Part shown: positions 1-64,000 of the stretch, one piece after another | Position numbering within the stretch: the stretch's first letter is position 1 | How the letters are laid out: the number at the start of each line of letters is the position of its first letter | Origin: Amoebophrya sp. A120 | Taxonomy: Eukaryota; Protista; Dinoflagellata | Length of the DNA: 64,000 nucleotides | Direction of reading: 5' to 3' | NCBI GenBank assembly: GCA_905178155.1 | Contig: CAJINV010000008.1 | Location: 1,984,001 to 2,048,000, forward strand | Position numbers and translations under genes: made by a program | The notes under the pieces: model-generated | Told to the model about the DNA's origin: nothing | The model's input: only the letters and a program-made list of their open reading frames with translations | Databases searched by the model: none

Positions 1-1275
1 CTTCGCGCTCTGTCGCAAAAACACAGCTGTTTCTTGTGCAGTCAACCTCTTCAACTCGAAGAACCCTAAAATCATCGTCATCAACATCATCTTAGTTGCT
101 AGCATAGGCATAGGGGGGCTGCTCCTAGGGCTTTTGGAAACAATCAATTACTGTCTCACTCGATACCCTCACTCGTTCGATCTTCTCGATGTTCTTGAAA
201 ATGTCCAGCCCACTGCCCACTGTCGCCACTACCGAGCCGAACACCGCCCGCGCCCCCGATTCGATCGGGCTCTGCAGAACCAAGCCTGCGCAACTGGGCA
301 ACCTGCTCGCCAGGTCCGTGCTGGGCCCGGAGCCGATGGAGCGCCCGAACACGAAGATGCTCGACGGCTGAAACTATCAAATGCAAAAATGTCTGGGTCT
401 GGAAGAATGCAACTTGTGATGCTGAATTTGGATTCCAGAAAAATCTGTATTGCATGAGCAGCAAAGGGAATGCAATTTTTGCTACGTGGAGAGGGCATCT
501 GTCATGCGGAATAGGCATCGCGAAGCCCTCAAAAAATCTGTGATGGTAGGGCATGCATCACAGACATCACGGCCAATGCAAAACATGCGTGACAAGTCTC
601 GCAATCTTCCAGACCCAGACATTTTTGCAATTCATAGAAACTGCAGCTTCTCAGTCAGGTACTTGTACGCGGCGTTTACCGATCGATAGCACCCCTGTTC
701 GGTCGGCTCCCCGTCTGACAGCGAGTACCTTATCGATTCGTTTTCTTCCTTTCTGATTCTTCGATCGATCATCGGGAAAAAAGATCCGAACGTCTCCTGT
801 GGGGAAGATGAACATAGTCGTACTGAGACGGCACAAGGCTGAGCGGAAGCCTCAAGCAAAGAAAAATATGAACTCGTATGCTGTTGCCGGACTTGCCATC
901 TCATCGATTTTTGGCTAAGATGTTGAGCAAACACAACAACACGACTGCTCACAGGCGGTGGAACAACTATGCTCACACTTTGTACCCCTCATATTCGTAG
1001 GCAAAGACGGAACATTCGGTAATCTTCGTGAGCTCCTCCAGGTAGGGTATAGCCAGCCCCACGTCCTCGGCATTGCCGTGTGAGTAGAGGATCACAAAGT
1101 GCTCGCCGTCGTGCGCCCGGCGGGACCGCTCCTCGTTGTTCAGATACACCGCGAGGATGCGGTAATTTTTACTCGTTTTAAAGTACACCACCTGATCGCC
1201 GCGCTCTTCGAGAAAGGGCTGCGAATACCGCGGGTCCGGCGCCGGAAACGCCAGTTGATTCACTACGTTCCCCAT
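1..1275 (-). CDS. ABHD17-like alpha/beta hydrolase (depalmitoylase family), multi-exon, 3' end outside window
   Basis: MGNVVNQLAFPAP N-terminus, LYSHGNAEDVG, YEYEGYSLSDGEPTE, nucleophile elbow GRSIG, LVLQSP. Exons 1275-986, 728-637, 369-167; GT-AG intron 729-985; TIR intron at 375-636. Confidence 0.85.
375..636. mobile_element. Introner/MITE family A (non-canonical intron in ABHD17-like gene)
   Basis: About 32-bp TIR TATcAAaTGCAAAAATGTCTGGGTCTGGAAGA; perfect TSD GAAAC (370-374/637-641); excision gives LQFQPSSIFVFG. Confidence 0.92.
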
Positions 1276-1991
1276 AATCGCTGCTCCCGCGGTGAGCCTG
1301 CTCAGGAAGCAACTACGAACGGGACACCAACCACCTCAAGCAGGCGTGGAGACCCACGTCTTTTTGCGATCGGTTTGCGGGATAGCGATCCTTGACTTGC
1401 GGCAGAAATAAAAGTTCCATCTTCAACATCTTGTTATTTTGAAATAGAGTACGAACAAAGCTAACGCGGAAAAAAAAGCGAATGGATGTGAGATCGACAG
1501 GAGGATTTACTTCCTTATTTTCCAATCCGGATACTCTTCTAGCCTAATTGACAAACAACGAAACTTCTGAAGCAAGTGGCAAATGGCTACAACGCGGCAA
1601 GGTCACTGCACGAGCCAGGAGAAATTTTCACGAAACAGGAGCGGGTGCAACGCGTACATGTCAGGAACAGCTTACATCTTGATCAGCGCGCTTCTGTCGG
1701 GTTGTCAACACAAGAAGGCTGACTGAAAAATTACTGCTTTGATTTTCGCATGTACATTTTGGACACAGATGGCCTTTGTTTCACAGCAAGGGGCGTTGCT
1801 TTGCAAAATCCGTTCCTCGGAATCGAGACCAGTACGAGTGTGCGATAAATCAGAACTCGCCACTGGTCTCGAACTCGGCAGGTACGTTACTATAAACTCA
1901 TCGACCGTGTTAAAGATGATGAATCGTCGAGTCGCAACTTGGTTGCCGATCAGTGCTCGTCTCGTCGTGAAAAGGTCTACGCAGGCTTTTT

Positions 1992-6817
<4,826 letters not shown>

Positions 6818-11390: not shown

Positions 11391-11668
11391 ACCGCGCCGA
11401 CAAATACATGTGGCGAGCTCGCGGTCGCAACAACCGGGCGCAAATATCTTCAGACGGTACCTTTTGTGGAAGTTCAAATTCCAACTTATTCTCAATAGTG
11501 CTACAATGCAACATGTACTTTACTGCCTTGCTATCGATCCTTGTACACCCGGGGTGGGGGTCGTATCCAACTCTGGAAGAAGAGTCAGCATGATTGAATA
11601 TATTTCTTTTTCCTGGGGCAGCTACTAATGCTCAGTATTAGAAGTCAGCAATATTGGACAGAACAATA

Positions 11669-13241
11669 TCACAGGCCACAGTACTCTCGTTTGATTTTCC
11701 CAGAGCGCAGCAGCGCGGGCGGGTGGAAGGTAAGCTGCTCCCCGGCTTCGATGTGCTCCACGCACCGGCCGGATATCCCCGTCACTGGCAGCCAGTTGCA
11801 CACATCCTCCACGGCGTATAACACTGCCTTCACGTGCTTCAGCGACCGATTGCGGATTTTGATCGGGTCCATCGCGTTTTTGGTGCCGTCCTGCGACGCT
11901 GTTCTCGACGTAGATGGAACGTTCAATTGCGGCAGAATTGTTCCCGTCCCCGCGGGCGGCCCGGCCGATGACGTAGTACCCTCAGAAGAAGTGCCGACTA
12001 TGCGAGATGAACCTCGTGCGCCCTCGCCGAGAGCCCCCGCAGTAGGGGTACTTCTAGAGACGGCACCCAGTTCGTCGTCGTCGGGTCTGTCAGCATGTGG
12101 TGGAGGCGCGAGCACCCCCTGTGCAAAAGGCAGGTAGTTCAGCTGTTGCGCTTTCGTCGAGGACATCGCCGGCGACAAAGGGATACTGATCGCGCCCTTC
12201 GAGGGCCCGCATCGCAGCGAGGTACTACCGCATCCTCGAGGACGGCCCGCCCCTCCAGAAAGCCTGCTACCATTGCTGGTCGGCGATAGTGCGCTATTGA
12301 TTTCCGCGATTTCGTTTTGCGGCAGGGTGGCGTTCATGGCCGCGGCGGTGCTCACGTCGGTCGCGGACACGCAACTAGCCGGGAACCACCAGGTAATTGC
12401 ATATTGAATGCCAATCATATGTCTCCGAGTCAGGAAGGTTTAACTTAGTGTAATATTTCATCAATCCGCGGCCGCCACCAAGCGGCACAAGTTTATTTTC
12501 AGCTGACAAGCAAGAGGATCAATCTGTGCGCCGTCGTCGTGCCTACGCGTCACAAAGTTCAGAATCATGTCAACAAACGCATGACAAGCGTTCTTGCAGC
12601 CTTCACCTCCTAGATGACCCAGAGGACACATGTCATGCAATGCATATTTCAAAATCCTCGAACATTTCGAGAGAGAAGACCCACTTGGCAAAACGGAACA
12701 GAACGAACGCCGTGGACTCCATCTCCTCGCGCTGCTCCGTTTCCGTGCAGACGTCAACCACGTAAAAACTGTTGTCGAACACGGCCTGGATCCGGTGCTT
12801 CCGGTTGTCCTCGGTGAAAAGGAAAATCTTGTACAAATACACCAAGATGGTGACCAGCATGGTGAGCGTGGCGAGAAGAAGGCAACCCGGAAGGAACTCT
12901 GGCACGTTGTCGTGTATCAAGTGGATGACGTTTTTCAGCCCGATCAGAAACAGCAGGATGAAGGCCGACACCGCAAAAAACGCTACAAAATTTGTGACGT
13001 AGTAAAATTTCTTCTTCAGAAACACGTGAACCGCGAGGAACAAGAGCACGAAGTAAAAAAAACCGCCCCACAGAAGTATCGTCGCGTTCGTGCCAATGCT
13101 GTAGGTCGCAAACGCGAGAAAAAAACCAATGGTGAGCCCCAGGACCGAAGTGAGGAAAGGCTGGCACAGTCGGGCGGATGGTAGCCGTTCCGTGAAGACG
13201 CGCTGGTCGCCACACATGTAGGCGCAAGTGTAAGACGCCAT
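11669..13241 (-). CDS. Hypothetical multi-pass membrane protein, 2 exons
   Basis: ORF 12633-13241 (about 4 hydrophobic helices) joins ORF 11669-12418 in frame (EDFEITWWFPA) after removal of the TIR element at 12402-12646. Confidence 0.7.
12402..12646. mobile_element. Aged family-A-like introner
   Basis: TAT...ATA ends, imperfect TIR, TSD TTGCA/TTTCA, frame-restoring excision of 250 nt. Confidence 0.75.
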
Positions 13242-14249: not shown

Positions 14250-17009
14250 CTACAATTCATCTTTCGGGGGCGCGGCGGCCACGGTGGCGGAAACTCCGGC
14301 TTTCGTACTTTCTTCCACCCGCAGCTCACAGTCAGACTTGTCGTCACAGGCTGTTGTCGGAGGGTCTTCTTCGTGCCAGGTCAGTTCCTCATCTTCCCCT
14401 CCGTTCAGGTCTCGCAACCGCTCCGCGAGAAACCTGCGGGCCTTCTGCCGCGACGTCCACTGGAAAATGACGTTTTCGTTCAACGTGAGCTGCACGCACT
14501 CGTCCTGCGGCCCGAACCCCGGTGGCCGGTCGGGCGACTTCTCGCTGGCCCCGAGGGTCGTGCTGTGCTTTTGGTGCACTGTGGCAGCAGCATGAGGATC
14601 CACCGTGTGGTCTTGTTCACCATCGTACTGGTCCCTCAGCCATACCAGCAGCCCGAGACTGCCGCCGAAGGGCGCCAGCACGCGCGTCGCGGTAATCGCC
14701 CCCATCTCCTCCACGACGCTGTAGTCCCGGGTGCAGTCGAAGTTGGTGAGCAAGGCTTCCTCGGGGTCGTTCCTCCGCTTCTCTTCTTCGCGTTTCGCGT
14801 CATCATGGATTTCTTTTATATCGTTCAACCCCACGTCCCGCACCTGCAGTTCCAAGGGCTTCAAAAAACTCCCCTGGAAGAACGACGCGGGGATTCTTGA
14901 TGAAGAACTCCCGTCGACACCACCGGCAGTAGGAGGAGTACGCGCGGCTTTATTCTCCTTTCCGCCGTCCAACGGGATTTCCGGGGCCTTCCAGGCGTAC
15001 ACCTGCAGCCACATGAGCACAGGCAAAATGGTTTCCGCATGGGCGAACGCAAAGCGAAACTTCTTCTCGTTGTTCGGCCCCAGTGAGAGGAAATAGGTCC
15101 ACTCCTGGAAGAAGTTCGCAGCAAACGGCTCCGCCGCCAAATTCGGGTTGCCAAACCCGCTTTTGTAAAAGTGCGCGTAGTCCATCAGCCGCTCCATCTG
15201 CAAGAAATCCGTTTCTTCCCCGAACACCTCGTCGCCCATGCATCCTGTGTGAAAACGTCTCCACCCCCGAGTTGTTTTATGCAAAGTGACATGTTGCCGA
15301 GAATGTTTCTACATGCCGCGCAAGAATCTCGTCATGCGGAGCAGTTTCTGATGCTATGATATGGGATCATCTTCTTGTCATCCTCTAATAGCGATAATGT
15401 GATGCGGCTGTACTAGGTAAACAGGACTACGCTGGGCGCCCATGGCTGTCACGCGCCGCAACAGCTAATAAACCCTATTGATTTCTTTGTGTAGCACCGC
15501 CGCGATCTCGACACTGCGGTGTGGGCGGCCCCATTTCCTTTTACACAGGATACCATGGCCGACTTATTCAGCAGTGCCCGTTCCATGATCGCAAGGTTCC
15601 AAAGAGCGTACGCGTCCGCCGTGGTGAGGTTCCACTTCGTGTGGAGATTGTTTGACGAGCTCTCTGATTGTTCGCCAGCAAAGAGCGTGACGTTCGGCAG
15701 GATGTGTTCGTCGAAATGCTTCTTGAACTCCCGCAGGTACTGCTTGTTTTTCCCCGGGCCGGTTTCCGTGTCGTTTTTCCAGCGCAGGTAGTCTTTGAGG
15801 TGCGCCGCCGTGTGGTATCGTAAGGAAAACTCCCCCCTCCCCATATTGAAAACGTATCTGTCTGAAAATTTGTGACCTCAAATCCTGTCTGTCTTGCAAG
15901 AAGGCAAGTCCAGAGCGCGCCGCGCACTTTCCAGGCGGTTTGTGATGCTGTTGGGCTTAGAGCATACACATTTGCCATGCTAGGCGCCTACGTCAAAACC
16001 TCTCGACTGAGGCTCCTTGGCATATGCCTGCAGTCCTCTCCAGCAAGACAAATCTGATTTGTGTACGGAAATCCAGCATCAGACACTTCGTTTCGGTATG
16101 GGGAGGGGGGATTTTTCCTTTTAATATGTGGACGCGGAATTCCGGGGCGGCGGCCGTGGCGTTCCAGCCGCCCGGCGGGACAATCACCATCTTCGAGCCG
16201 CGCCGCCCCAGCCGGGTCTTGAACCCGACGGTACTGGCGTCGAAGTACCGGAGCCGCTGGTCGTGCAGGGCCAAGACCCGGTCCTCGTGGGTTTTGCCGA
16301 AGGGGTTCTCGCCCAACGCGTCGTGGAGGCCGGCGAGGAAGGCGTTGCCGGACTGGGTGCAGCGCGACTTGGAGCTGCTCTCGTACTGCAGCCGCGTGCT
16401 GTTGTTCGCAAACGAAGACAGCAAAAAGCGCCACTTCAGCCCCTGCCGCGCGAGCTCCTCCCACCCGCGCTCCACCAGCGCGGCGTCCTGTTTCTCAAAT
16501 GCGGCGAGGTCCGTCTGTAGCCACCGGTCGGTCCGCCGGTGTCGTTCGGCGACATGCCGCTTCAGCTTCCGCCACTTGGTCAGCTTCTTGCCGTCCGGCG
16601 TGCGCGTGCCGTGGCGGAAGAGCACGTCCGCCGCCTGCAGGCGCCAGTTGAACCGGGAGTCACGCAGCGCATACGTTTTTTTGGTCGCATTCGCGTCAAC
16701 GGCGTGAAAGTACGAACTCTTTTCGGGCGGATGCGTGAACTTCCGCCCGTACGGATTGTACAGCGCTTCGTTGAAGTACGGCGTCTTGGTGCCGGCGTGG
16801 AACTGCCAGCTCCGCTTCGGGGCGCGGACCGACGCGGGCCTCCAGGACCGGCCATCTCTTGTCGGCTTTGCGTCCGTCGTTGGTGGTCCGCCAAACACCG
16901 ACCCGTACGCGAGGGCCCGCAGAAGAACTGCGGCCGAGGACCATCGCTGGGCACTTCCGCTTCCCGTCGTTCCGGTTTGCGATTTCGGTCTGGCGGGAGA
17001 CATTGGCAT
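14250..17009 (-). CDS. Histidine acid phosphatase, MINPP1/phytase-like, 3 exons
   Basis: Catalytic RHGTRTP motif, SSKSRCTQSG, FAHAET and APFGG motifs typical of MINPP; N-terminal hydrophobic segment; two TIR introns. Confidence 0.8.
15241..15552. mobile_element. Family-D-like introner in MINPP gene
   Basis: (C/T)ATCCTGTGT-AAA TIR; perfect TSD CCATG; excision gives KSAMGDEVF. Confidence 0.85.
15816..16126. mobile_element. Introner family B in MINPP gene
   Basis: TIR AAGGAAAA(C/A)TCCCCCCTCCCCATA; perfect TSD TGTGG; excision gives FRVHTAAHLKDY. Confidence 0.92.
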
Positions 17010-17663
17010 GGGTAGGCCTCACGCCTCGAACTAGAAATTAATATCAATATACTCGTTGCAAGATAGCCTGTCTTTAGGTAGCGAAGGAAGCAGCTAGGTT
17101 TACTTAGACGCTACCGATTGCTTTTCTTCCAGACTCTTGCACAATTGAGGCCCTTATCGAACTACAAGAAAAAACGCGCACTATATGCGATCGGGTGGAA
17201 GGTACGGCATGGCGGTGTGTTCGCTTGCAAGCGAAAGTATAGCGAATTTCGAATATCGACCGACTGCCTGGGGTGAGGATAGCGATGGGTGTTGCTGACG
17301 CCCGCCGGAAAAGTAGCAAGCCATTTATTTACGACCCGATTACGAAGTGCGACGCGATATTATTCTTGTCAACCATTTCTCGGAAGGGCGCCGGGCTCGC
17401 GATGCGTTTTTGCGCAAGGCAATCCCTGCAAGCGCGGCGCAGCGAACGGAGCGCGGCCAAGATGCAGCGCGGGAAAGCCGGCCGGCGAGAAAGAAAACGC
17501 GGGGCGTACCAGGTCGCGACGGACGCCCGGGGCCCGCACCAAAGCGGCAGCGGTACCGGCTTCCGTTCCCGTAGGCTCCTCCCTTCGGGGGCGTAGGCTA
17601 TTGCGCATCCAAGCGACTACGCTTATCGCCCGCCCCAAGTGGGCAGGCGTGCTGTGTTTCTAT

Positions 17664-17890: not shown

Positions 17891-18009
17891 ATTTTCCAAA
17901 TGTGGAGCCTAATTAATAACATGCAACCCATGCGGCTTATAAATAGGCAAATACACCAACAACGCACCGTATAAAGTGCATGGGACACATTTTGTAGTGC
18001 GTAGCTGTG

Positions 18010-49322: not shown

Positions 49323-49877
49323 GACGACATCGTCATGACCAGGTAAGGAAGGATGGGATGGTGCAGGTGGTCGAGTCCGAAGTAAAGGTATAGCTGGATC
49401 GATCTGGTTATCCTGAGTAAAAACGTACCCACACCAGAGTCAGGTTGGGGATTTTGCAACACAATCCTAGGAGTTTTGTGAGTCATGCATGACAAGTTGC
49501 ACTTTGCAGTGTAGTGCAGGTTAGCAAGTGCAGCCGCATCACAGATTCGTCTGCTCATCCTGTTCACAGCATCACAAATTCCAAAACACGATTGGTAATG
49601 GCTCTCATGGGGATGCGCATTACAAGTCTTCCTCTCTTTGCAAATCTGCATTACAACTCTGGTGTGGTTACGTTTTTACTCAGGATACTGGTGTTCACAA
49701 TGCGTACATACGGATCGCGCGTGTGTGAAACAAGGGCAAAAACTCAAACCGTCGACGACCCTGGCATGACGATTGGATTTTTTCGACTCAATTCTATACG
49801 ACATCGACGTTGCTTCATCCCAAAGCGTGACCACAATTTTTTCAGGTGTCAATCAGTTCTTAAATGAAATTTTTCTG
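49323..49877 (+). pseudogene. Diverged duplicate of the CCT4 3' end and 3' flank
   Basis: 49323-49371 matches 47940-47988 (GACGACATCGTCATGACCAGGTAAGG..GGGATGGTGCAGGTGGT); about 49695-49877 aligns to about 48065-48237; interrupted by a family D element. Confidence 0.8.
49409..49687. mobile_element. Family D element in non-coding DNA
   Basis: 32-bp TIR with one mismatch (TATCCTGAGTAAAAACGTA.CCACACCAGAGT); perfect TSD CTGGT. Confidence 0.95.
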
Positions 49878-50593: not shown

Positions 50594-52607
50594 ATGACGG
50601 TCGAAAGCCGGGAGAAAGTTACCCCGGCCCGCCCGCGGTTAGGTGCTTCGACGCCGGAAGATAAGCCCACCGCCGCAACCACCGACTGGACCGCCGGCTG
50701 CTGGACCGCGCGGGTCCTTGAGAAGCCCGAAGTCCCCGTCCAGGAGACGAAGCAGAAGCAGTCCAACATCACCCGCAACAAGAACGACTACTACTGGATC
50801 CTGGGGTTCTACCTGCTGTTTTTCGTCCTCTCTCGGCTCCAGTGGCCCACGCACCTGAAAACCACCGTGCGCGATCGGGAGTACCTGATCGAGGAGATGA
50901 ACAGCCTGTCCGTGTTCGGTCCGTTACCGGACCCGCGAAACGGGGACTGGAACCAGCTCTGGTTCCTCTATTTCCTGCAGACCGCGCTCGCGATCCCGGT
51001 CGTCGTTGCGTGCACCTGGGTGGTGATGTTCGGGTACGACCGCGTCTGCGGATGTCGTGCCACTCGCGGGTCCACTACCACCGGTCCGACGCTCTTGTTC
51101 CAGCTGAAAACCATCGCGGTCAACTGCTGCCTGTTCCTGCCCCTGGCCGACACCCTCGCGGTGTACCTGGTGCACAAGGGCGCGTTCAAGACCTTTGTCC
51201 AGGACTGTCCGCACACCTATCAAAAGGAAAAATCCCCCCTCCCCATATCGAAAACGAAATTTGTGTTGCTGTATTTGTGTAAGAACTGCACGCAGATCGT
51301 AAGCCTAAGGAGGGGGGGGCTCTTGGTGTAGGGGCCTAGCATGGCAGGCGTCTGCCCTATAGGCCTTGCAGCATTACAAAGCGCCTGCATACCCTGGCGG
51401 AGTCTCTGAGTTTGCCCTCTTGCAAGAGAGACAGGATTTGTGGCCACAAATCAGCATCGCAAATCTTTAGAAACATAGACACTTCTTCAGTATGGGGAGG
51501 GGGGATTTTTCGTCTCAATAACACCGCGATGGACTTCTTCGGGGTTTTCTCTTTGAACCCGACGGACCACTTTTACGTCTACCACCTCCGGGACGCGCTG
51601 CTCTGGGCCCTGGGGTTCGAGCTGTGCTGGTACTTCCAGCACCGGGGGATGCACGACAACAAGTTCCTGTGGAAGTTCGGCCACGAGTATCACCACCAGT
51701 GGCGCAAGCCCGAGCACATGATGGGCGTCACCAACTTCGCGTTCGACCATGTGGTGGAGGTTTGGGTTACCATGAGCAGCAGTTTCATTGTACCACACAG
51801 AGAAAAAGCTGGCGTATCAGAGGACTTGTTGTATATGTGTGGAATACCATGAATAGAAGACAGGGCAGATGTTCCTTCGTCGATAGCATGTTGTTTGAGC
51901 TCATTTGCAATATACTTTTATACGAATTTTTGGCTTATAGTTGTTTTTGCATGTTGTAGTTGACAGCGCATCTGCTATGCTAGCTTTTTTCTCTGGGATA
52001 CATCCCGATGCTGTTCTTTCCCATCCATCTGTGGACCATGCGGATCGTGGGTTTTTTCTACATGATCCTCGCGGTGCTGGCCCACTGGGACGGGTTTGCC
52101 ATGCGGTACCACCTGAACCACCACTACTTGGTGGTGAAAAACTACGGTAGCCACGTGCCGATCTTCGACATGTTCTTCGGTACCTACCAGCCAAACTCGT
52201 TTTTTCCGACCTGCGAAAAGCACTGGTATCCGGGGTTCAAACCGGAAGGTCGAACGGGTATCAAATGTTGCAAAAATGTCTGGGTCTGGAAAGTCGCAAC
52301 TTGTCATGCCGTCTTCGGATTCGAAAAAAATTTGTGTTGCATGACCAGCAAGGGGAGTCGACTTTGTGCTACGCGGAGAGGGCATTTGTCATGCAGTATA
52401 CGCATCAGAAACAGCGAGCCCTCAAAAAGTCTGTGATGCTAGGGCATGCATCACAGACGTCATGGGTCATGCAAAATGTGCATGGCAAGTCTTGCACTAT
52501 TCCAGACCCAGACATATTTGCAATCCATAACGGGGGGAAACGACCAAAATGCGAACGACAAAGGCCAGGAGGGGACCACCAGGAAGGAGACTGCAAAGGA
52601 ACAATAA
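50594..52607 (+). CDS. Sterol desaturase / fatty-acid hydroxylase superfamily protein, 4 exons
   Basis: His boxes HRGMH, HEYHH, HLNHH followed by NYG..FDMFFGT; TM helices; all three introns are TIR elements. Confidence 0.88.
51218..51520. mobile_element. Introner family B in desaturase gene
   Basis: TIR GAAAAATCCCCCCTCCCCATA; perfect TSD ACACC; excision gives DCPHTAMDFF. Confidence 0.93.
51791..52000. mobile_element. Introner family G in desaturase gene
   Basis: TIR CAGAGAAAAAGCT.GC.TA.CAGA; TSD CATTG/CATCC; excision gives SSSFIPMLFFP. Confidence 0.8.
52259..52529. mobile_element. Introner family A in desaturase gene
   Basis: TIR TTGCAAA.ATGTCTGGGTCTGGAA; perfect TSD ACGGG; collinear with 375-636. 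Confidence 0.93.
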
Positions 52608-54133: not shown

Positions 54134-57100
54134 ATGTTGCGCGACGCGATGCCTTTTTTGGAAACCGAGGTGATGTTTGACGGACCTGAGAAGGCGGGGA
54201 AAGATGGTATCAATTTTTACAACCACGTCGGTGAAACGAAGACGCCGCACGATTTGTGGAAACAAGACAAACCGAAAAACAAGAAAGTGGTTGCTCGTTC
54301 CTCGCAGAAGTACGTGCTTGCCGCCTTTGCTGGAGTGGCCTTGTTCGACGCAGGTCCCGCGCGCGCTGCGTTTCAAGGAGGGGCTGGTCTAGGGCTTGTG
54401 GGCGGTGGAGGTGCTGGTGCTGCTGAGGATGCTATGCAAAACAAAATAATGAAAGCTACACTTTCAGAATTTGCATCATACCATGTGAAGAGCATAAGGA
54501 CAAGGAGTGAACAAGCTGCCATGTAAATTTACGACTGAATATTTGCATAAGAAGTAGCAGGACTCGATCTAGTGACATAAAAGTCTCACCACCCGGTGAC
54601 TTGGTGTTTGCGAATGTGCATTTTTACACATACCGATCTGATGTGCTAGCGCTAGCGTGCATGAAGTTCAACGAAAAGAAGTCGGAAAGATGGCCAGAAG
54701 CGGGCGCACAACTGCACAGAGCGGTTGGCGTTGAACAAGTCTAAGTTGCTTCAACATTCGCGACAATATCAGCATTGGAGGGCCTTGCAGAAGGAATTCT
54801 GAATGAAGAGATATATGACATCAGGCGTTGTTGCCATTGTGCTGATCTATGAGGCAAATCGTCGTGAAGTGCATAGGAATTGACTCAGCCCGTTGACTAT
54901 GCATCACTCCTGACGTGGTTGTGGCACAGACATGCAAGTGGCTTTTTTTCGTTCGATACGTGGGTACAACGCGCAGGCGCCTTCGTGTCTGAACCGGTAT
55001 GGTGCCATTGTGCGCAATCGGGCTAGTCCTCCAAGTATCAAAATGGTGAGCGACCAGACCACCCCGGAGAAGTTTGTATTGCAAGACTATAAAAATTCAC
55101 TCAGCCATGTTTGTATTGCAAAGCTATAATTCACCATTGCAAGATGGAAACAGATTGAGCATCTGCGCATGAAAATTACGCTTCTAAAGAGAGGGAAAGG
55201 AAGCACGCAGCTTTTGTCACTCTGCATCACAGACGCGTTCCGCCAGTCTGCATCCGATATAGGTCCTGTTGACGATACATGGAAACAAATACACTGCGTT
55301 GTTCTCTCTAGGGATAAAAGGGGCTCTTCTCACTTTGATACTGGGAACGTGGGATCCGTTACTTACAAACCCAGTTTCTGAAGAGGTTGCGGGGTGGAAT
55401 TCGGGAATTCCGTGGCACACGGTATGCATTGCTTCTGATATGTCTGGGTCTGGAAGGATACAGGAAACTTATATTGCACTGATTGTGGAGCAGACAGAAT
55501 CAAAAATCTTCTATCATGCATGAGATGACAGCTGCGAAGGCCGCTCTTCTGGGCTGACCCAAAGAGGAGATTTTGGGTTTTGTGCCGTGGACGGGATCGA
55601 AAAACATGCGCTTCCGCGAAACGAGTACTGCGTTGGCACGCACACATGCACCCGTCCTGTTACGGACCATCGTGGTCGCAGCTAGAGTAAGTATTCAAAA
55701 TGTGCATGGAAATAAAGTCGCCACTTTTCCAGACCCGGACGGCGTTTGCACTTTAGACGCGAGTGGCCCCTTATCGTCTTGCTACAATCATCGTGCTGCT
55801 GATGGCGAAGGTGCGGATGGGGCCGAAGTTGGAGCTTTCGCCACGTGGGCCAGTGGATTTTTTCAGCGGATGCACACAGTCGATATTGTGCGGGAATGCA
55901 ATTGCGAGTCGGGGTACTTTGGTTGTTCCCACTCCCTCTGCACAATGCCGAAGTGCACAACCTACGCGCCTCCACCACCTCCAGCAGCCTCGGCGGGCGG
56001 GTCGGATGGATCATCTTCCGGCGCGGGCGGTTTGCATCTGCCAGGAGGTGGTGGGGCGGCAGCGGGAGACGTGGCTGCCGCAGCTGCAGCACCGGGGACG
56101 CCCTGGTGCCAGGAGGTGAATACCCGGTATGAGGAATACAGGCAGCATCTTCACCAGGAGTACAACAGCCGGTCGTGCGGCATGGGCGAGTTGGCGCGCG
56201 GCCTCTTTAACAGTGGTCGGTACGGAATCGAAGCCACGGGTGCGGCCACTCTGGCCGTGACGATGGGCAGCGCCTACTTTACGGCTCTCGTTTTCGAGAC
56301 GATCACTTTGTTTGGCCGTGGCGCTAGCGCATACGTGGGGAACCGGGCCGAGCATCGCGCTCGGGCGATGCAGGGCGGGCAAATCGAACCGGTTGTCGAT
56401 CCGGCGGAATGGGTGGACGGTCCAGACGCCGTCCCCGGCGCACATCCGGTTGCCGGACCGGCGCCGACACCCAGCCTCGATGCGAGTGTGAACGAGATGG
56501 TGCGCTGGGTTGACTTCTTCCGCGAGCTAAAATGGCTTGCCGACAATGCCGTGCCGCTTGATTTGTACGAGGGAGATGAACATCAAGAGCTGCGACTGCG
56601 GGCTGCTCCGCGGGTCGTAAACATCAACGCCGGATCACCTGGTCGTCAACCTGCTCCTTCTACGGCCCCCGGATCACAACAAGAACGCCTGAATGCCCAT
56701 TTGTTCCAGAAGGTGATGGGCCCTGTACCGGAGGTCACGGCGGGCACGCAAAACCCGCGCGAGCTGGGCGGTCTCCTCACAGATGTGGAAAAAAATCGAC
56801 TGGAGAGCCTGCTGGTGTACAAGGAGCAGATGCCACGTGGAGCTCCGCGTCCGCGCTGGGGACGGGTGCGCAACGAATGGTCGCCGTGGGTTACCAGTTT
56901 CACGGACCGGTGGTTCTTCCGTAACGAGTTTCTGAACTCTGAGGCTCTGTGGCGAGAACTTCGGGACGAGCTCGCGCAACCGGACGCGGCGCTGGCGCTG
57001 CTGAATCCGCTGCGGCTTTTGCAGTACGACAGCAAGTTTTTGTGGCAGGGAGGGTTTGAGTACTCGCCTCAGGAACAAGCGACCTTCGGCCGGAAGTACC

Positions 57101-60100
57101 AGGTTCCGGAGCCGATAGCGCTGAAATTCGAGTTACTGCTGAAGGAAATCCCGAAACACCAGCCCGGAAGAGCGTTCTGGTACGTGCGGAAGACAAAGCA
57201 GTTCATCTCCAAGACCGACCCATCAGTACGCGAGCTCTGCGGCGAGTCGCCCGGAACCGCGCAGCCGGATAATCGTGACGAGCGTCAGTGTGTCCCGGTC
57301 CCCACCGCGGAGCAAGCACGGAAAACGCTGAACTTCTACCTGAACCGCGCGAACAAGTATCAAATGTAAAAATGTCTGGGTCTGGAAGAATTCATGTTTG
57401 TCATGCTTGTCTGGCATGATTCTTAAATCTGTCATGCACGTTACCCAAGCGCTCCGTTTTTTTGTGATGCAGAAGCGCAGTTTGTCATGCAGAATAGGCA
57501 ACACCTAGGAGCTCAGAAACTTGTCATGCTGAGCCAGCATTTGTAGCCTCATCATGAGACGCCACCCAGCATCACAAGTTTCCAGACCCAGACATTTTTA
57601 CTTTTGATAACAAGGGACGGGTGCTCAGCGTGTCGCTTCGTTTCGCTGCGGCGGAGCAGATGACCGCCAGGGGCGAAAATGAACAGTCGCGGCAACTGCT
57701 GCGCGACAACAGTCTTTACCAAGACGAAAAAAGCAAGCCCCCATAGAAGTATGTACTCCGATGCGACTTACTTATTTGTGCATCCGGTAAGTAACACATT
57801 CCCATTCAGGCGGACAAACGCCGGCCTGTTCGCGACATGGGTTAATAATTAATAGATGATGCGTTTATTCATGATCCTGGCATGACAGACTTGCTGACTG
57901 TGTGTAGGCAGAACAGATTTATATATTTTCTTGCCAAGAAAATGTGGCCGAGATGAATCAAAATCTACAACTGAGTAGTTGTAGACTGACACACAGATGA
58001 TAGTTGCGCTTGCGCGTTCTCGTCTTTGATATTGTGCAAGAGCGAGTCCATCATTGTGGTGTTTAGCAAGAAAAAATCCAATGACAGTGCATTACTTTGG
58101 GGCCGCGGCTTTTTTCATTCGGATGCTCGGCGCAGTCGTTTCATTTCGCGGGCTCTGGCAGCCTACGCCCGCATCTTCAAAGATAGTCTCGTCTTGCCTG
58201 CTGGGCGAGGTCGAGAACGCGTGGCTGAAGCCACTATGGACGCATTCGGCCAAGCGGTGCAGGACGGACGCGACGGGAAGGAAGAGAAATTATCCCATCG
58301 CCAGTGGTACTGTCCCATCACACTAGATTTGATTAAGGATCCGGTGGTACTCGGGATTGACTGGGAGAAGGGCGAAGACGGACATGGTTTTGTCCCCGGC
58401 CGTGTGGTGACGGTGAGACAGGGAGTTCGCCAGCTTAGAGCGGGTCTTGTCGCCGGTGCCCGGCGAGCAGTACTGCCCGGACGAAGAAGGGCGGACGATC
58501 ACGGGGCCGCTGGACCAAATGCGGAAGGTGGAGGTTGGGTGCCGCAACATATAAAGTTGCGGCCAAACATATCCTGAGTAAAAACGTACCCACACCAGAG
58601 TTGTAATGCAGATTTGCAAAGACAGGAAGACTTGTAATGCGCATCCCCATGAGAGCCATTTCCAATTGTGTTTTGGAATTTGTGATGCTGTGAACAGGAT
58701 GAGCAGATGAATCTGTGATGCGGCTGCACTTGCTAACCTGCACTACTACACTGCAGAGTGCAACTTGTCATGCGTGACTCACAAAACTCCTAGGTTTGTG
58801 TTGCAAAATCCCCATCCTGACTCTGGTGTGGGTACGTTTTTANAGATGAATCTGTGATGCGGCTGCACTTGCTAACCTGCACTACTACACTGCAGAGTGC
58901 AACTTGTCATGCGTGACTCACAAAACTCCTAGGTTTGTGTTGCAAAATCCCCATCCTGACTCTGGTGTGGGTACGTTTTTACTCAGGATAAAACGTCAGG
59001 CAGGTACAGGCCGGGCCAAATGGACGCCCACCCTTTGCGGTTCCGGCAACCAAGCACAGATACGTTTTTGAGCGCGCCGCCATTCAGCGTGTTATTAACG
59101 AAGCGGGGAACGGCGACGTATACCATCCGCTTAATAGAGAACATCTAGACCGCGATGGACGTGAGTTATACGAATACAAAGAGTTGAAGGACGAGATAAA
59201 CTACGTTGTTCGCGAGGGGCTGCGCGGTGCAAATGAGCACGATATTGTGAGGAAAAATTCTGCCTCCCTATACTCAAAAGAAATATTTGCAATGCTGAAG
59301 TGTGGCCACAACCCACAAGTCAGGTCTCTACTCCTGCTACCTGCTCTGTGTCCGAGTCCCATCTGTCATGGTCGGACACTTTCTACATTTTCGCATCACA
59401 AATTTCCGGTTTGCGTATGGGAGTGGGATTTTTTTCATTTTGATTCACGAGCGTGCCGCCAACGGCCAGGAGGCATTCAGGAAGTTGTTCACAGAACCAG
59501 AGTTCCTTATTGGTGCGACACGGTACAACGATCGCATCCAAGCGCTCCGCAACGAAGCAGCGCCGTCCGGGCGCAGTAGACCGACGCGTCTCACGAACGA
59601 GGAGAAGCGTGGCAGACACGAATTTCTCGCTGCTTCGCTGGTAGCCATGGGCGAGAGCATGGGGGGGCTGTGGCAGGCTGAGGATAGCGGAGCGCCGGCG
59701 CAAATGACGATGGAACAACGGCCAGCGCAAATTGAAGGCCACGGCCAGGAGCGGCTGAGCAACCTCCTGCGGCAGTCGGTCGACGGTCTGCGCGAGAAAG
59801 CTATGCATCGCAAATGTCCAACATCTCGAGGATCAGCGTCTGGGTTTCATCATGGAGCGTTTTCTCCAACCGATCGGATTTTTTGTATGGATACACTATG
59901 ATCCCATCATCGACATGCAGCAAATCTGCGTCATGAATGCAGAAAATATCTTGATCTCGTCTTTCTGGCATGATGCTTGGCGTAGCATAGCTTCTGTGTC
60001 TGTTTTGTACACCGAGCTTGTTGTACTGCTAAGTAGGTGAGAACAAGATGCAGTAGAAGTCAATAAGAGCCGCCTGGCAAGGGTTTTTTACATTTAAATG

Positions 60101-63100
60101 CCTTGTTGATCATGATCCTTATGGACTCGGGAAGCCCCTACTGTAGCGATGCAAATCGACGCCGGCCAAAATTTTGAATTCTGTATTATCGGCTCCGAGA
60201 TTTGTAGAAACCCAGAGAGCAGAACCACGAGTTTTATTGTGTTTGCGCGTGATACAGACACAACTCTTGCTCGAGAACGAAAATAACCCGCAACTACGCG
60301 AGCAGTTGATGGAAACACAGGTGCCCAGCATGGTGGACATTCAAAGTACGTTCGGCCGCAAATCAGTCGCGACAAGACTGGCAGAGTGCGCCGCTGCATG
60401 CGGGGACCGGCTGAACCCCACCGGCAGCAGGAGCTGGGACAACGTGGTCAACCAGGTGCCTGGATTTTCTAGAGCGCGACGACAAGAGCCGCTGTCCGAA
60501 GAAACGAGTAAGCAAGTCCTGGTGCTTGCGCTGACCCAGAAGCCACCGGTCGTGGACAGTACTGGCGCTGGCGGCGCGACAATGTCGGTGGTATGCCTTG
60601 CAAATTTCGATCTGGTGGGTCTGGAGAGTTCTGATGCTAGTTTGGTAAGTGTGGTAAAACGACCGTCAAAAAAGCTGTAGAAAAGTGTCAAGTACTATTT
60701 TTTTTTCATGATCTTCAATGGGTCTCCTGATAGTTGGGATGTGCAGATGAAAATACGTGCTGCACAAGCAAGTCGCGCTTGTTTTCCGAAGACGTGCTAG
60801 AGGTTAGACCTATGATTCAGACGAGTCGTATAGAAAATGTATATTCTTGAATGATTTTGATATTCTATTCCGATATTTCCAGTATTCTATACCCACCAGA
60901 TCGATATTTCCAGTCCATAAGTGGGCACCGGCACCAAAACGTGGTGGCAGTTCTCTGCGCTGGCCCGGTTAGACGCACAGCAGAGTTGGCTCGACCTTTT
61001 GAAGCGCGCGTCAACGAACCAGTTGAGACCAGACATCAACAAAAAGATCAAGGACCTACAAGGTCTCTACTTGCAGATTCCCGGGAATGTGTACTATGGC
61101 CACACGGACAACTGCTGCGAGAGTTTAGAAGGTGAAACCGTGACGGGGCAGCGGTTCTGCGGACCCTGCGGCGGCTGCTGCGCTTCGACTTGCACCAGGC
61201 TAGTGGACGGTGGTCTCTGCCAAGACATGGAGAGCTGCGCGAAATGCTGTCACTGGGGCGGCTGCTTCAACTTGAGTGGCGACCGTGCGCAGGGAAGCGG
61301 GGCCAATCTGGTGGAGATGCTCGTGTCTTCGATGGGGGATGCTGACGCCTTGAAGCAACGCGACAGGTTTTCGTTGGAGGATCTCGTGCTGCAGACTTAT
61401 GAAAACTTCGAAAACCGCATGCAGAGGCAGACTTCCGAAACGAGAAGGAACATGTTTGGCAACAAGACCGAGGAGACCGGTTATCCTGCAGAAAAACGCA
61501 CCCACACCAGAGACAGAGTTGTATATTGTATATATGTATGTATGCCACCCAGAATAAATATCTCTCACGCGGCGGTCCCATGAGTGGCATTGTGTAGCCG
61601 TTTTTGGATGGAAGCCACTTCTTGTGCTGTGTATAAAAATCAGCAGAGAGTGGAAGAACAAGTCGATCCGCCGTGCTGCGGCTTTTACTAGCTAGGCACG
61701 ACTGCCTCATCTCCAAACTTGTCATGCGGAGCTCGCGGAACCTCTGGACTTTTCTAATAAACCTTATATCTTGCCTAAGGGATCGTGGGTGCGTTGTTTT
61801 TACACAGGACACCGTTGGAGACCAGTGTTGCGACACTTGCTGTGAATGGATCGGCCGGCCGCGTGCTCGTATTGCCAATCCGCAGGAACTGCACACGATG
61901 GACATGCCGCTAAGTCACGGAAGTTTGCGCAGTCGCAGGCTAGAGCCACACGCCGAGGCGTGTGCCAGATGTGATCAGTGTTGGGCGCACTGCTGGGGCA
62001 AGACGTGCTGCCGGGACATTGTCGGCAACTGCTGCTTCCGCAATTGTCCGGGACAGGTACTGGACGGCTGCGTCGGTTGCGCTTCAACGGCGTGCAACGC
62101 GACCCGTACCGGGTACCGAGCGGCCCGTTCTTGGGCCGGCCGGGGGCCCTGCATCCGCGGGTCCGGCGCTTTGGGTTGCCGTCTGTGTGATAGTGCTGGC
62201 AGAGCCGGGTTGCATTTCTGCGAGCAAGGAGTTTTCTCCGTGCTCGGGGCCCTGGCGTACATCACGGGCGTGGGTGTCACCTACGCTGGGCAGTCATGCG
62301 AGCTCATGGGGAGGGGGGCCGGGTACTGCTGCTGCAACGTCTGCAGGCAGGCGCAATTGATTGGACAAGGCTGTGTGCGGGCGGGTGCGTGCGTTGGCAA
62401 GGAGTGTGTGAAGTGCGGCGTCTCGGCAGGCAGGACGGCCACGGCCGTCGCGGTCGGCGGATCCAGTGCCCCGCCCTATCAACTGCAAAAATGTGTGGGT
62501 CTGGAAGATTGCCAGGTTTGTCATGCATATTTTGAATGACCCATGATGTCTGTGATGCATGCCCTATCATCACAGATTTTAAGAACAATTTGTGATGCCT
62601 CTACCGCATGAGAAATGCCCTCTCCGCGTAGCACAAACTGGAGCCCTCCTGCTGGTCATGCAACACAAATTTTTTTAGAATCCAGAGACAGCATTACTTC
62701 CAGACCCAGACATATTTGCAATGCATACGCCCCAACAGCAGACCATGAACGACGGTGGCGCGCAAGCGACATCAGGGGCGCCCTCGCAGCAGACCGACGA
62801 TTGGGGACTTCGGCCGGACGAACAGCCCGGCTGTTGGCCCTGCGTATGGAGTTCTCGCCACATCGAATGGACGGGGCGACCGAGCACGCCGGCAGCCGAG
62901 GCGCCAAACGGCTCGGCCGTCGTTTCGGGACTGAAGGAATGTGGACGAAAATGGTGCCCGGCCGGAGTTCTCGGAAGCTGTTGCTGTCCTGCCGTCGCTT
63001 GTTCGGCCGCGGTTCTTGCTGATGGTTCCAACCTATCCTATTGAAAATTGCTTTCGCGCCCTCGTCCTCCCCCAAGAAGAAGACAAGTTTATTTCACTTC

Positions 63101-64000
63101 GTATGTAATCGAAGATGATCGATGTTGTTCTCGGATTATAATATCTAGGCTGTCGAGCTGGTGTTGACAGGCCATTTTTTGAAACTGCGACACGGGAGGT
63201 AAGTACTTCGCTCTCGCTCACATTGCGTAGGAGTGACAGCTTGTATACTTACTCCAGAGGGCAACATCATGCAGGACATACAGCTGCAAGGACTTTATTT
63301 TCCAATCCTCGAGAACAGCGGCTGTTACGTGTTGCAGTTACTAAATCTGCTTGCCATGCGATGAATATCTTCAAAGTGTTTTTTCCAGTGGGTGGTGGCC
63401 GGGGGATGCGCCTTTCTTTTCGATACACCCTTGCTCTACGCATCGGAAACGGGGCGATGGCCTTCGCCGGGACGAGCCTGCTTGTGCTGCTGAAAGGGCT
63501 TCTTGGTCTGGTAGACGTGATGTCCAGGATCTTGTGGCCGCTGACGAAGTTTGCCAAACTGCTGCTAACTGCTCTCTGGGTGGTCATCGAATTATTTGTG
63601 GAGCTTATCAAGGACGGCGGACGTGGACTCGTGTCCATTTTGACGAAGGCGTACGCCGTACTGTTGAAGGGCTTCGTCTTTGCCTGGAATTATCTCGCCG
63701 CTCCTGCCGCACAGTTTATGCATTGCAAATATGTCTGGGTCTGGGACGAGAGCAGGGCGCGACTTGGACCGTCGCATTCACATGTTCCTGAATTCTGTAA
63801 TGCATGCTGGGGAACGGGCGCACCGCAGCCGCAGGAGCACTGCTTCTGCTTCTGTGTCTCTGTCGTGACGCAAAATCGCAGTTTTTATTCATTTATCATG
63901 CGCGTTATTTAGATTTACCGAGCGATTGCTTGAAAAAAAATTGTCATGCGTAGGCACGTGGTACGGCAGTCAGTTTTTTATCCAGGTGTGAGGGGAACGA
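54134..64000 (+). CDS. Giant multi-exon protein with split U-box-like domain, Cys-rich regions and TM helices (3' end outside window)
   Basis: ORFs 55269, 55573, 58026, 59184, 59302, 60174, 60921, 61673, 62721 and 63223 join in frame on removing TIR element+5 nt at each gap; WYCPITLDLIKDPVV...RYVFERAAIQRVI..YHPLNREHL is U-box-like; linkage of 54134-55035 is weaker. Confidence 0.6.
55423..55757. mobile_element. Aged family A introner
   Basis: ATGTCTGGGTCTGGAA / TTCCAGACCCGGAC TIR core; decayed TSD CACGG/CGCGA; element+5 excision joins ORFs 55269 and 55573. Confidence 0.75.
57358..57609. mobile_element. Introner family A
   Basis: TIR TATCAAA.GTAAAAATGTCTGGGTCTGGAA; perfect TSD ACAAG. Confidence 0.92.
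57717..58125. mobile_element. Highly aged putative introner
   Basis: Imperfect TIR (GAAAAAAGC..GCCCCA), internal GCATGACAG, element+5 (414 nt) excision keeps frame (NSLRSRFISR); TSD poorly preserved. Confidence 0.5.
58570..58990. mobile_element. Introner family D (reverse orientation; contains 138-bp assembly duplication around N at 58843)
   Basis: TIR TATCCTGAGTAAAAACGTACCCACACCAGAGT; TSD AAACA/AAACG; interrupts the U-box coding region. Confidence 0.9.
59243..59445. mobile_element. Shortened family-B-like introner
   Basis: Degenerate family B TIR and TGTGGCCACAA core; perfect TSD CACGA; excision gives NEHERAANGQ. Confidence 0.8.
59802..60254. mobile_element. Aged introner with GC...AG-compatible boundaries
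   Basis: About 47-bp imperfect TIR (TAT..CGCAAA..CTCG.GG.TC.GC.TCTGGGTTTC); 458-nt removal (59800-60257, GC-AG) keeps frame. Confidence 0.7.
60592..60919. mobile_element. Introner (TIR core TCGATCTGGTGGGT)
   Basis: TAT...ATA ends, TSD GGTGG/AGTGG, excision gives TMSVGTGTKTWW. Confidence 0.85.
61482..61811. mobile_element. Aged family-D-like introner
   Basis: Left TIR TATCCTGCAGAAAAACGCACCCACACCAGAG; right GTGGGTGCGTT..CAGGACA; TSD CCGGT/CCGTT; in-frame junction EETGGDQCC. Confidence 0.78.
62477..62727. mobile_element. Introner family A (reverse orientation relative to 52259)
   Basis: Family A TIR; perfect TSD CGCCC; excision gives SSAPPQQQTMND. Confidence 0.92.
63034..63425. mobile_element. 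Aged introner
   Basis: TATC...GATA ends, weak TIR, TSD CAACC/CACCC, in-frame junction DGSNLALRIG. Confidence 0.65.
63717..64000. mobile_element. Family A introner, right end probably beyond window
   Basis: Left TIR TATGCATTGCAAATATGTCTGGGTCTGG; internal TTGTCATGCG; no right TIR in window. Confidence 0.65.

What the first reader, a model, noticed from the sequence alone, without database searches (positions are those of the whole stretch)
375..64000. Transposon-derived non-canonical intron system: many TIR families, one grammar (TAT...ATA + 5-bp TSD, seamless removal)
Seen: about 31 elements of 133-453 bp from at least 8 families with different TIRs. Intact copies start TAT and end ATA (aged copies show substitutions), and are flanked by a 5-bp duplication (16 perfect, 8 with one mismatch). 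Thirty interrupt exons, including essential AlaRS. In all 29 complete cases, deleting the element plus one TSD copy restores the frame, often rejoining recognisable protein sequence. Sliding the junction within the TSD almost never gives GT-AG (51218 offers neither GT nor AG). Established: inverted-repeat introner elements forming non-canonical introns are described in Amoebophrya, and to my knowledge their excision mechanism is unresolved. Inference: one mobilising enzyme (no transposase is in this window) and one excision machinery that recognises the TIR hairpin rather than splice dinucleotides. Removal could occur at RNA level or, less likely, at DNA level.
Basis: partly seen in the sequence, partly recalled or inferred. 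Interest (0 to 1): 0.92.

Follow-up and report, generated by a model that had tools for sequence, protein, structure and literature searches.

The report
Amoebophrya hairpin transposons acting as introns
These are the already described mobile introns of the marine parasite Amoebophrya A120: small transposon-like inserts that stay in the DNA and, in the four cases checked against transcript assemblies, are missing exactly from the message, likely cut out by an altered spliceosome at a spot one base before the insert's first letter.

Summary
In detail: 31 complete TAT...ATA hairpin elements with a 5-bp duplication (16 perfect, 8 one mismatch), 30 in exons; none of 30 tested offers GT-AG. But the system is published. 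Window proteins are 100% identical to Amoebophrya sp. A120, whose introners, TAT-N7-AAA motif and direct repeats are in Farhat 2021; 5-bp TSD with TA..TA ends is noted for one family in Gozashti 2025. Added here: spliced-transcript contigs lack exactly element plus 5 nt at four sites, while a DNA-type run holds them, so removal is at RNA level; one family is removed from both orientations; a second assembly shows a strict 5-bp TSD (51 of 58). Aged copies with unequal TSDs put the cut inside the duplication, best after base 4, aligning TAT with +2 to +4 of the host's GTA(T) donor (19 of 19 GT-AG introns start GTA). That hints at a relaxed spliceosome rather than a hairpin-only machine, but rests on few sites. 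No transposase found. The scan noted similar introns in other dinoflagellates.

The parts
375..636 (-). element, 262 bp, TSD GAAAC/GAAAC, largest family
   Evidence: many different flanks join at 375 and 636 in runs X5 and X1
3582..3728 (-). element in AlaRS, 147 bp, TSD TTAGT/TGAGC
   Evidence: annotated protein P0004; absent with 5 nt from X1 contig 2 by length and depth arithmetic
4114..4435 (-). element in AlaRS, 322 bp, TSD ATCGC/ATCTC; cut after TSD base 2 or later
12402..12646 (-). aged element, 245 bp, TSD TTGCA/TTTCA
   Evidence: inside X5 contig 13
13370..13674 (.). candidate aged element outside coding sequence, TAA...ATA, TSD AAAGA/AAAGA (uncertain)
15241..15552 (-). aged element in histidine phosphatase gene, 312 bp, TSD CCATG/CCATG
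   Evidence: absent from X1 contig 6, present in X5 contig 13; Pfam
15816..16126 (-). element, 311 bp, TSD TGTGG/TGTGG; same family as 4114, opposite orientation to the transcript
24603..24987 (+). aged element, 385 bp, TSD CCGCG/TCGCG
28764..28999 (+). element, 236 bp, TSD GGACC/GGACC
29154..29495 (+). aged element, 342 bp, TAA...ACA, TSD CTCTG/CTTTG; reads GTAAGG if cut after TSD base 4
33954..34086 (+). element, 133 bp, TAC...ATA, TSD TGCGC/TGCGC
36778..37084 (+). element in dynamin-like gene, 307 bp, TSD GCCTG/GCCTG; retention would leave the frame open, yet the annotated protein lacks it
37618..37820 (+). aged element, 203 bp, TSD ACGAC/AAAAG; annotated protein fixes the cut after TSD base 3 or 4
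37974..38252 (+). element, 279 bp, TSD GGAAA/GGAAA
39164..39360 (+). element, 197 bp, TAT...ACA, TSD CTCCA/CTCCA
40401..40706 (+). element, 306 bp, TSD GGGCA/GGGCA
40802..41097 (+). element, 296 bp, TSD CAGAC/CAGAC
49409..49687 (.). young element outside coding sequence, 279 bp, TSD CTGGT/CTGGT, 93% like 37974
51218..51520 (+). element, 303 bp, TSD ACACC/ACACC, neither GT nor AG at any register
51791..52000 (+). aged element, 210 bp, TAC...ATA, TSD CATTG/CATCC
52259..52529 (+). element, 271 bp, TSD ACGGG/ACGGG, near gene end, frame support weak
54433..54958 (+). candidate aged element, TAT start; end unresolved (three open-frame options)
55036..55340 (+). aged element, 305 bp, TSD CCAAG/CTGGG
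55423..55757 (+). aged element, 335 bp, TAT...AGA, TSD CACGG/CGCGA
57358..57609 (+). element, 252 bp, TSD ACAAG/ACAAG
   Evidence: annotated A120 fragment P0124 spans the joint
57717..58125 (+). aged element, 409 bp, TAC...ATG, TSD GTCTT/CTCGG
58570..58990 (+). young element, 282 bp plus a 139-bp repeat at an N, TSD AAACA/AAACG
59243..59445 (+). aged element, 203 bp, TAT...ATT, TSD CACGA/CACGA
59802..60254 (+). aged element, 453 bp, TSD AAAGC/CAGAC
60592..60919 (+). element, 328 bp, TSD GGTGG/AGTGG
61482..61811 (+). aged element, 330 bp, TAT...ACA, TSD CCGGT/CCGTT
62477..62727 (+). element, 251 bp, TSD CGCCC/CGCCC
63034..63425 (+). aged element, 392 bp, TSD CAACC/CACCC, no end pairing in the predicted fold
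63717..64000 (+). element of the 375 family, cut by the window end

Best explanation
The inserts are the introner elements of Amoebophrya sp. A120: short non-coding TAT...ATA hairpin elements with a 5-bp duplication that stay in the DNA and are absent, with exactly one duplication copy, from the four transcript joints checked; they were likely spread by one integrase-like (DDE) transposase acting in trans and are likely removed from pre-mRNA by the parasite's altered spliceosome, probably cutting after the fourth duplicated base. Steps: (1) identity with the published A120 introners, shown (about 0.97). (2) Insertion by a staggered 5-bp cut without target or strand preference: the footprint is shown, the enzyme inferred (about 0.8 for a DDE enzyme, one or a few). 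(3) Removal from RNA, not DNA: shown for four sites in one pair of runs (about 0.9). (4) Cut after TSD base 4 at both ends, so that the intron reads N-TAT...ATA-NNNN and TAT takes positions +2 to +4 of the host donor GTA(T): inferred from few sites (about 0.6). (5) The catalyst is a U2/U5/U6 spliceosome that tolerates any +1 base and has no AG rule, with the terminal hairpin bringing the ends together and setting the 3' cut: inferred (about 0.55).
For: Identity: AlaRS exon 100% to an A120 protein, 88% to A25; dynamin exon 100% to A120. Farhat 2021 gives for A120 TAT + seven bases + three As, IRs, 3-5 nt repeats, 29,850 copies; the window ends match. Insertion footprint: in a second assembly (loci L001-L168), anchored on an inner TIR motif only, T/A/T at 98/99/96% of 261 ends, flanks near random, 51 of 58 paired copies with a perfect 5-bp repeat and none with 3, 4 or 6-10; families lie both ways to the transcript (56:46, 13:11, 8:5, 6:6); 71 of 73 clearly coding pairs of flanks fit one copy kept. 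RNA level: X1 contig 2 (3,508 nt) lacks six GT-AG introns and fits the depth table only with both AlaRS elements +5 removed (11.42 expected, 11.4 seen; +2 gives 11.04); contig 6 has exactly the 258-nt middle exon; X5 contig 13 runs unbroken over 4398-15845 at depth 24 like its flanks. 4114 and 15816 are one family in opposite orientations and both are removed. Register: annotated dynamin reads MNEK at 37618, possible only with the cut after base 3 or 4, and a 90% homologue also has NE; the models come from BLAT-aligned transcripts; 4114 needs base 2 or later, E kept in A25; a paralogue favours base 4 or later at 59802 and 61482, total score highest at 4 (949; 948 at 5; 932-937 at 0-3). 19 of 19 GT-AG introns start GTA, 9 GTAT. 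Changes in the first two bases: 8 at 5' ends against 21 at 3' ends of 262 oriented copies (p 0.024). U2, U4, U5, U6 and 83 of 89 spliceosome proteins are reported for A120, U1 not found. A120 family 38 has TIRs, 5-bp TSD, TA/TA ends and integrase-like ORFs.
Against: No transposase in the window or in 535 kb of the second assembly (longest element 1,104 bp, its 238-codon frame has no Pfam match); Farhat found none in A120. The RNA evidence is arithmetic on contig lengths and depths, no joint row for X1 was among those printed, it covers 4 of 31 elements and one run; no RNA data was obtained for 17101-64000. X1 is 'RNA?' and X5 '?' to the tool; I read them from what they hold. Only one site bounds the cut from above by annotation; the paralogue is 24-28% identical and at 63034 favours base 2 or earlier. 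The GC-direction test on unequal TSDs was inconclusive and partly against: the upstream copy looks decayed at positions 4 and 5 but also at 1. The 5'/3' asymmetry is post hoc, one of several tests, and position 3 runs the other way (8 against 3). 10 of 30 elements have neither GT nor AG, hard for a conventional active site. No lariat, branch point or circle was tested.
Confidence: 0.55

Rival explanations
1. Same elements, removed from RNA by a non-spliceosomal machine (nuclease plus ligase, or a second spliceosome) that reads the terminal hairpin and TAT/ATA and measures the cut from it, as proposed for euglenid nonconventional introns.
For: No shared dinucleotide at any register; both orientations removed; ends pair in the predicted fold of 29 of 30 sense strands; U1 snRNA not found in A120; euglenid introns of like build leave as circles (review).
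Against: TIR pairing follows from transposon origin alone; no G.U excess in the sense strand (175:158, window 30:33); 63034 has no predicted end pairing yet restores the frame; the best register matches the host donor; Fritillaria, with 95% non-GT/AG introns, keeps a modified U2 spliceosome (abstract; review).
Confidence: 0.27
2. The elements are cut out of the DNA in an expressed or later stage (as ciliate internal eliminated sequences are; recalled), so that mRNA comes from clean templates.
For: Removal of element plus one TSD copy is what precise DNA excision would give; symmetric ends; DNA and RNA runs here come from different samples; 111 joint rows were not shown.
Against: X5 holds exon-element joints at depth 20-25, equal to unique DNA, and no exact skip is among the 15 rows shown; X1 and RNA run X8 hold element ends joined to flanks, as unspliced precursor would; a mixed joint taking letters from both TSD copies with polar 5' conservation fits RNA better.
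Confidence: 0.06
3. RNA-level removal by a spliceosome, but with the cut at another register (flush with TAT, or after base 1 so that ATA-N mimics the AG end) or varying between copies.
For: Published statistics show both a T at +2 and an A at -2 in excess (nine top A120 motifs; family tables); Farhat calls the border variable or unknown; 63034 and the GC-direction test disagree with register 4.
Against: Those statistics can come from aligners sliding within perfect repeats; register 1 is excluded at 4114 and 37618, register 5 at 37618, if the annotation follows the transcripts.
Confidence: 0.1
4. The inserts are gene-breaking MITEs that are not removed, or assembly noise.
For: One copy carries an assembly-type duplication (58570); the long gene at 54-64 kb is annotated only as fragments.
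Against: Single intact AlaRS message lacks them; annotated proteins and homologues are colinear over the joints; 66,565 RNA-seq-supported introns in A120, over 60% non-canonical.
Confidence: 0.02

Closest known systems
Introner elements (IEs) of Amoebophrya sp. A120 (Farhat et al. 2021, PMC7789003)
   Same: Same strain by protein identity; TAT + 7 + AAA ends, inverted and direct repeats, about 250 bp, many families, non-canonical borders, RNA-supported removal.
   Different: The paper gives 3-5 nt repeats of variable position and leaves the border unknown; here the repeat is strictly 5 bp, removal seamless, orientation free, and the cut placed inside the repeat, best after base 4.
A120 introner family 38 (Gozashti et al. 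2025, PMC12130899, dataset file 8)
   Same: TIR element, '5-bp TSD, TA/TA Termini'; ORFs with likeness to Copia/Gypsy integrase-type transposase: the best lead for the mobiliser.
   Different: About 810 bp and 5 copies; its sequence was not compared with the window's elements.
IS3EU/GingerRoot and Ginger2 DNA transposons (PMC10045372)
   Same: IS3EU/GingerRoot have TA..TA ends; Ginger2 has 4-5 bp TSDs; all use integrase-related DDE enzymes.
   Different: IS3EU/GingerRoot TSDs are usually 6 bp; no transposase here to place the elements.
Euglenid nonconventional introns (review PMC11282704)
   Same: TIR hairpin, TSD-like repeats, no GT-AG, MITE origin, mechanism open.
   Different: CAG/CTG core there, TAT/ATA here; circles shown there, untested here.
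Fritillaria borealis non-canonical introns (PMC13326754; review PMC11282704)
   Same: MITE-derived introns with TIR and TSD handled in a genome that also keeps GT-AG introns.
   Different: Preferred AG-AC/AG-AT ends and conserved U1 there; no end consensus and U1 not found in A120.

Membership tests
Amoebophrya A120 introner elements | genome is A120 | tested here: met
   100% identity to A120 proteins
Amoebophrya A120 introner elements | terminal inverted repeats starting TAT + 7 bases + at least three As | tested here: met
Amoebophrya A120 introner elements | 3-5 nt direct repeat at the borders | tested here: met
   5 bp
Amoebophrya A120 introner elements | non-canonical borders, removed from transcripts | tested here: met
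   0 of 30 GT-AG; 4 sites by contig arithmetic; 9 by annotated proteins
Amoebophrya A120 introner elements | repeated in families | tested here: met
MITE (non-autonomous TIR DNA transposon) | short, TIR, fixed-length TSD, many copies | tested here: met
MITE (non-autonomous TIR DNA transposon) | autonomous partner with the same TIR and a transposase | tested here: inconclusive
   none in 64 kb + 535 kb; whole genome not held
IS3EU/GingerRoot | TA..TA termini | tested here: met
IS3EU/GingerRoot | TSD usually 6 bp | tested here: not met
   0 of 58 with 6 bp, 51 with 5 bp
IS3EU/GingerRoot | transposase in that clade | not testable with these tools
   no transposase in hand
U2-type spliceosomal intron | GT/GC...AG ends | tested here: not met
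   0 GT-AG and 1 GC-AG of 30
U2-type spliceosomal intron | lariat and branch point, need for U2/U6 | not testable with these tools
   no such data
Euglenid nonconventional intron | CAG/CTG near the ends | tested here: not met
   end profile against review text
Euglenid nonconventional intron | released as full-length circles | not testable with these tools
   no raw reads of this strain were found (X8, X9 do not cover the exons)
DNA-eliminated sequences (ciliate IES-like; recalled) | absent from the DNA that is transcribed | tested here: inconclusive
   present at full depth in the one DNA-type run laid; other stages untested

The most novel reading that the evidence does not exclude
A120 removes tens of thousands of transposon copies with a splicing machine that obeys no intron-end dinucleotide at all: it takes the transposon's TAT as a donor with any first base, and finds the 3' cut four bases beyond the hairpin, using the target duplication so that every insertion, in either direction, is erased without a scar; a general transposon-erasing splicer, spliceosome-derived or wholly new, and perhaps shared with other dinoflagellates.
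Probability: 0.35. Interest if true: 0.82.

Novelty: already known. Interest (0 to 1): 0.4.

Why it matters
The system is in print, so the window is an example, not a discovery. What stays open is how an organism without a detectable U1 snRNA removes introns that have no end consensus. The unequal duplications of aged copies give a cheap way to map the true cut, which the original paper left unknown; if the cut is fixed after base 4 genome-wide, the choice between an altered spliceosome and a new nuclease-ligase route becomes directly testable, and the rule would repair A120 gene models (the gene at 54-64 kb is annotated only in fragments).

Tried and rejected
No whole genome is held, so no genome-wide transposase search. 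No listed holder is on record as RNA. Raw RNA runs X8 and X9 laid 9 and 2 reads, all on element ends, so they are not this strain's exons. Laying a DNA-type run filled the joint table with repeat-to-repeat rows; 111 rows were not shown. Candidate 731-982 was dropped: no TIR (6 of 20) and it is a GT-AG intron. First bounds for 37618, 55423 and 61482 were off by one and were corrected. TAT..ATA plus 5-mer alone is no test. Frame restoration cannot tell +5 from +2 or +8; lengths and proteins were used for that. G.U against A.C test: no signal. GC-direction and codon-score tests of which TSD copy decays: inconclusive (35 unequal of 194 oriented, of 366 tested; 262 oriented of 394). Published splice-motif tables cannot fix the register. 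TIR motif in viral contigs: 0 matches. L026 frame: no Pfam family. The protein atlas gave no answer. The second assembly shares no locus with the window, so no empty site was seen; its organism was not determined. I found no paper fixing the cut register or the catalyst in searches, which cover only open PMC and bioRxiv texts.
Full report
Check of the observation. A strict scan of the window finds TAT...ATA pairs with a flanking 5-mer repeat, but that pattern alone is no more frequent than in shuffles (81 against 106-162). The signal lies in the arms: 19 pairs with at least 13 of 25 arm matches against 2-7, and, with no demand for TAT or a repeat, 17 distinct elements scoring 40 or more where five shuffles reach 37 at best. 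Curation gives 30 complete elements and one more aged copy at 29154-29495: 16 perfect duplications, 8 with one mismatch, 3 with two, 4 with three. T, A, T stand at the first three places of 56, 57 and 57 of 60 ends, followed by an A run at places 11-15. No register of the cut gives GT-AG in any of 30; 10 offer neither GT nor AG.

What genome this is. An AlaRS exon is 100% identical to a protein of Amoebophrya sp. A120 and 88% to A25; a dynamin-like exon is 100% identical to another A120 protein. Farhat et al. 2021 (PMC7789003; I read the abstract, sections 10, 11, 12, 16, 20, 25, 32, passages, and supplement legends and table rows; no figures) report for A120 66,565 RNA-supported introns, over 60% non-canonical, 29,850 introner copies in 1,954 families, inverted repeats that start with TAT, seven variable bases and at least three As, and direct repeats of 3-5 nt; U1 snRNA and a transposase were not found, and the border position is marked as unknown. 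A supplement legend shows an example with a 5-bp repeat. Gozashti et al. 2025 (PMC12130899; passages, section 6, supplement file 8 parts 15-16 and rows) list A120 family 38 as a TIR element with '5-bp TSD, TA/TA Termini' and integrase-like ORFs. The finding is therefore a known system in its type strain.

Seamless removal. Walking the annotated proteins along the window shows 2 elements and 6 GT-AG introns in AlaRS and 6 elements and 6 GT-AG introns in the dynamin-like gene, each element gap being its length plus 5. Homologues are colinear over the five dynamin joints that could be aligned (one row of those shown is one residue shorter); A25 AlaRS is colinear at 4114 and differs by one residue within 40 around 3582. 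Removing 11 elements plus 5 nt from 54962-63711 leaves one frame of 1,672 codons without a stop, and an annotated fragment spans the 57358 joint. One element (52259) has weak frame support and one (49409) is non-coding.

RNA or DNA. Four runs were laid on 1-17100. X5 has flat depth near 25 and a contig unbroken over 4398-15845, introns and elements included, so I read it as DNA; other contigs carry the exon-element joints of 3582, 4114 and 15816 at like depth. X1 lacks GT-AG introns, so I read it as spliced RNA. Its joint rows were not printed, but the arithmetic is tight: contig 2 (3,508 nt, depth 37) reproduces the eight depth bins free of element copies only if both AlaRS elements plus 5 nt are absent (last bin 11.42 expected, 11.4 seen; plus 2 gives 11.04, plus 8 gives 11.81, retention gives 0-1.6), and contig 6 has 258 letters where the exon between 15241 and 15816 has 258. 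4114 and 15816 belong to one family and lie in opposite directions to their transcripts. This is one RNA-type run, four elements; nothing comparable was obtained for 17101-64000, and other life stages are untested.

The insertion footprint beyond the window. An inner TIR motif found 175 or more stretches in another assembly (loci L001-L168; organism not determined, no shared locus) and none in viral contigs. Fixing the ends by distance from that motif alone, T/A/T appear at 98/99/96% of 261 ends with near-random flanks, and 51 of 58 paired copies have a perfect 5-bp repeat, none 3, 4 or 6-10 bp; 2 of the remaining 7 look like mispaired ends. A wider scan gave 415 elements, median 261 bp, in 535 kb; the longest is 1,104 bp with a low-complexity 238-codon frame and no Pfam match. 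71 of 73 copies with clearly coding flanks fit one repeat copy kept, and families lie both ways to the transcript. A fixed 5-bp duplication without target preference is what a DDE transposase or integrase leaves (established knowledge; PMC10045372, passages). TA..TA ends recall IS3EU/GingerRoot, but those usually give 6 bp, so I do not file the elements there.

Where the cut lies. With perfect repeats the cut cannot be placed, and published motif tables may reflect aligner choice. Unequal repeats can place it. A120 models rest on BLAT-aligned transcripts. At 37618 (ACGAC/AAAAG) the annotated protein reads MNEK, possible only with the cut after base 3 or 4; I had written the base-4 guess in the notebook before that call. 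At 4114 it reads FAEISR, which needs base 2 or later and is kept in A25. A distant paralogue favours base 4 or later at 59802 and 61482 but base 2 or earlier at 63034; its summed score peaks narrowly at 4. With the cut after base 4 the intron begins N-TAT; all 19 GT-AG introns examined begin GTA and 9 GTAT, and the aged copy 29154 would read GTAAGG. In 262 oriented copies of the second assembly the first two bases are changed 8 times at 5' ends and 21 times at 3' ends (p 0.024, post hoc; the third base 8 against 3). Against this, the test of which repeat copy decays gave no coherent register. For the hairpin as a signal, ends pair in 29 of 30 predicted folds, but there is no G.U excess in the sense strand.

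Mechanism. Most likely: a trans-acting integrase-like enzyme inserts the elements anywhere in either direction; the transcript's ends are brought together by the TIR; an altered spliceosome lacking an ordinary U1 takes N-TAT as donor and cuts four bases beyond ATA, leaving one repeat copy and the original coding sequence. Shown: anatomy, footprint, exact loss from four transcript joints, presence in DNA. Inferred: enzyme, register, catalyst. Fritillaria shows that a spliceosome can be retuned this way (PMC13326754, abstract and passages); euglenids show the alternative (review PMC11282704, passages and section 6). Roy 2023 and Henriet 2019 were seen only as citations.

Verdict. Real, and already known. 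The refinements (strict 5 bp, orientation-free exact removal, a probable cut register matching the host donor) make the open question testable but are modestly supported; I did not find the register in searches. Earlier notes of this scan report like introns in other dinoflagellates, untested here. Interest 0.40.

Noticed in passing
window 58705-58981: 138-nt perfect tandem repeat around the window's only N inside element 58570; likely an assembly overlap, the element being 282 bp.
   Followed up: partly
window 49323-49872 against 47940-48235: Diverged copy of the 3' end and downstream region of the chaperonin gene (45229-47963); the young element 49409 sits in it.
   Followed up: no
window 24030-25300 and 26030-26630: Two paralogous cysteine-rich genes; only the first carries an element (24603), a natural filled/empty comparison at protein level.
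   Followed up: partly
window 54134-64000: One long cysteine-rich gene with 12-13 elements, present in the protein collection only as short A120 fragments (P0124, P0125); its paralogue P0126 has a U-box hit.
   Followed up: partly
window 17040-20090 and 30300-32350: Gene-free blocks of odd composition (G runs, A+T-rich and G+C-rich parts); the first lies at the switch from minus-strand to plus-strand genes.
   Followed up: no
L026 505-1608: 1,104-bp TAT...ATA element with perfect TSD and a G+C-rich repetitive interior; no Pfam match for its 238-codon frame.
   Followed up: partly
L045 5378-5928, L021 4381-4791, L037 632-1465: Apparent nested or compound elements in the second assembly.
   Followed up: no
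window 375-412, run X8: A 2026 RNA run that does not cover this window's exons still has 9 reads on the 375-family TIR, 4 joined to foreign flank: the family seems shared with another strain or species.
   Followed up: no
window, 19 GT-AG introns of AlaRS, dynamin-like and chaperonin genes: All begin GTA, with no conserved G at +5 (4 of 19), which fits an unusual or missing U1.
   Followed up: partly
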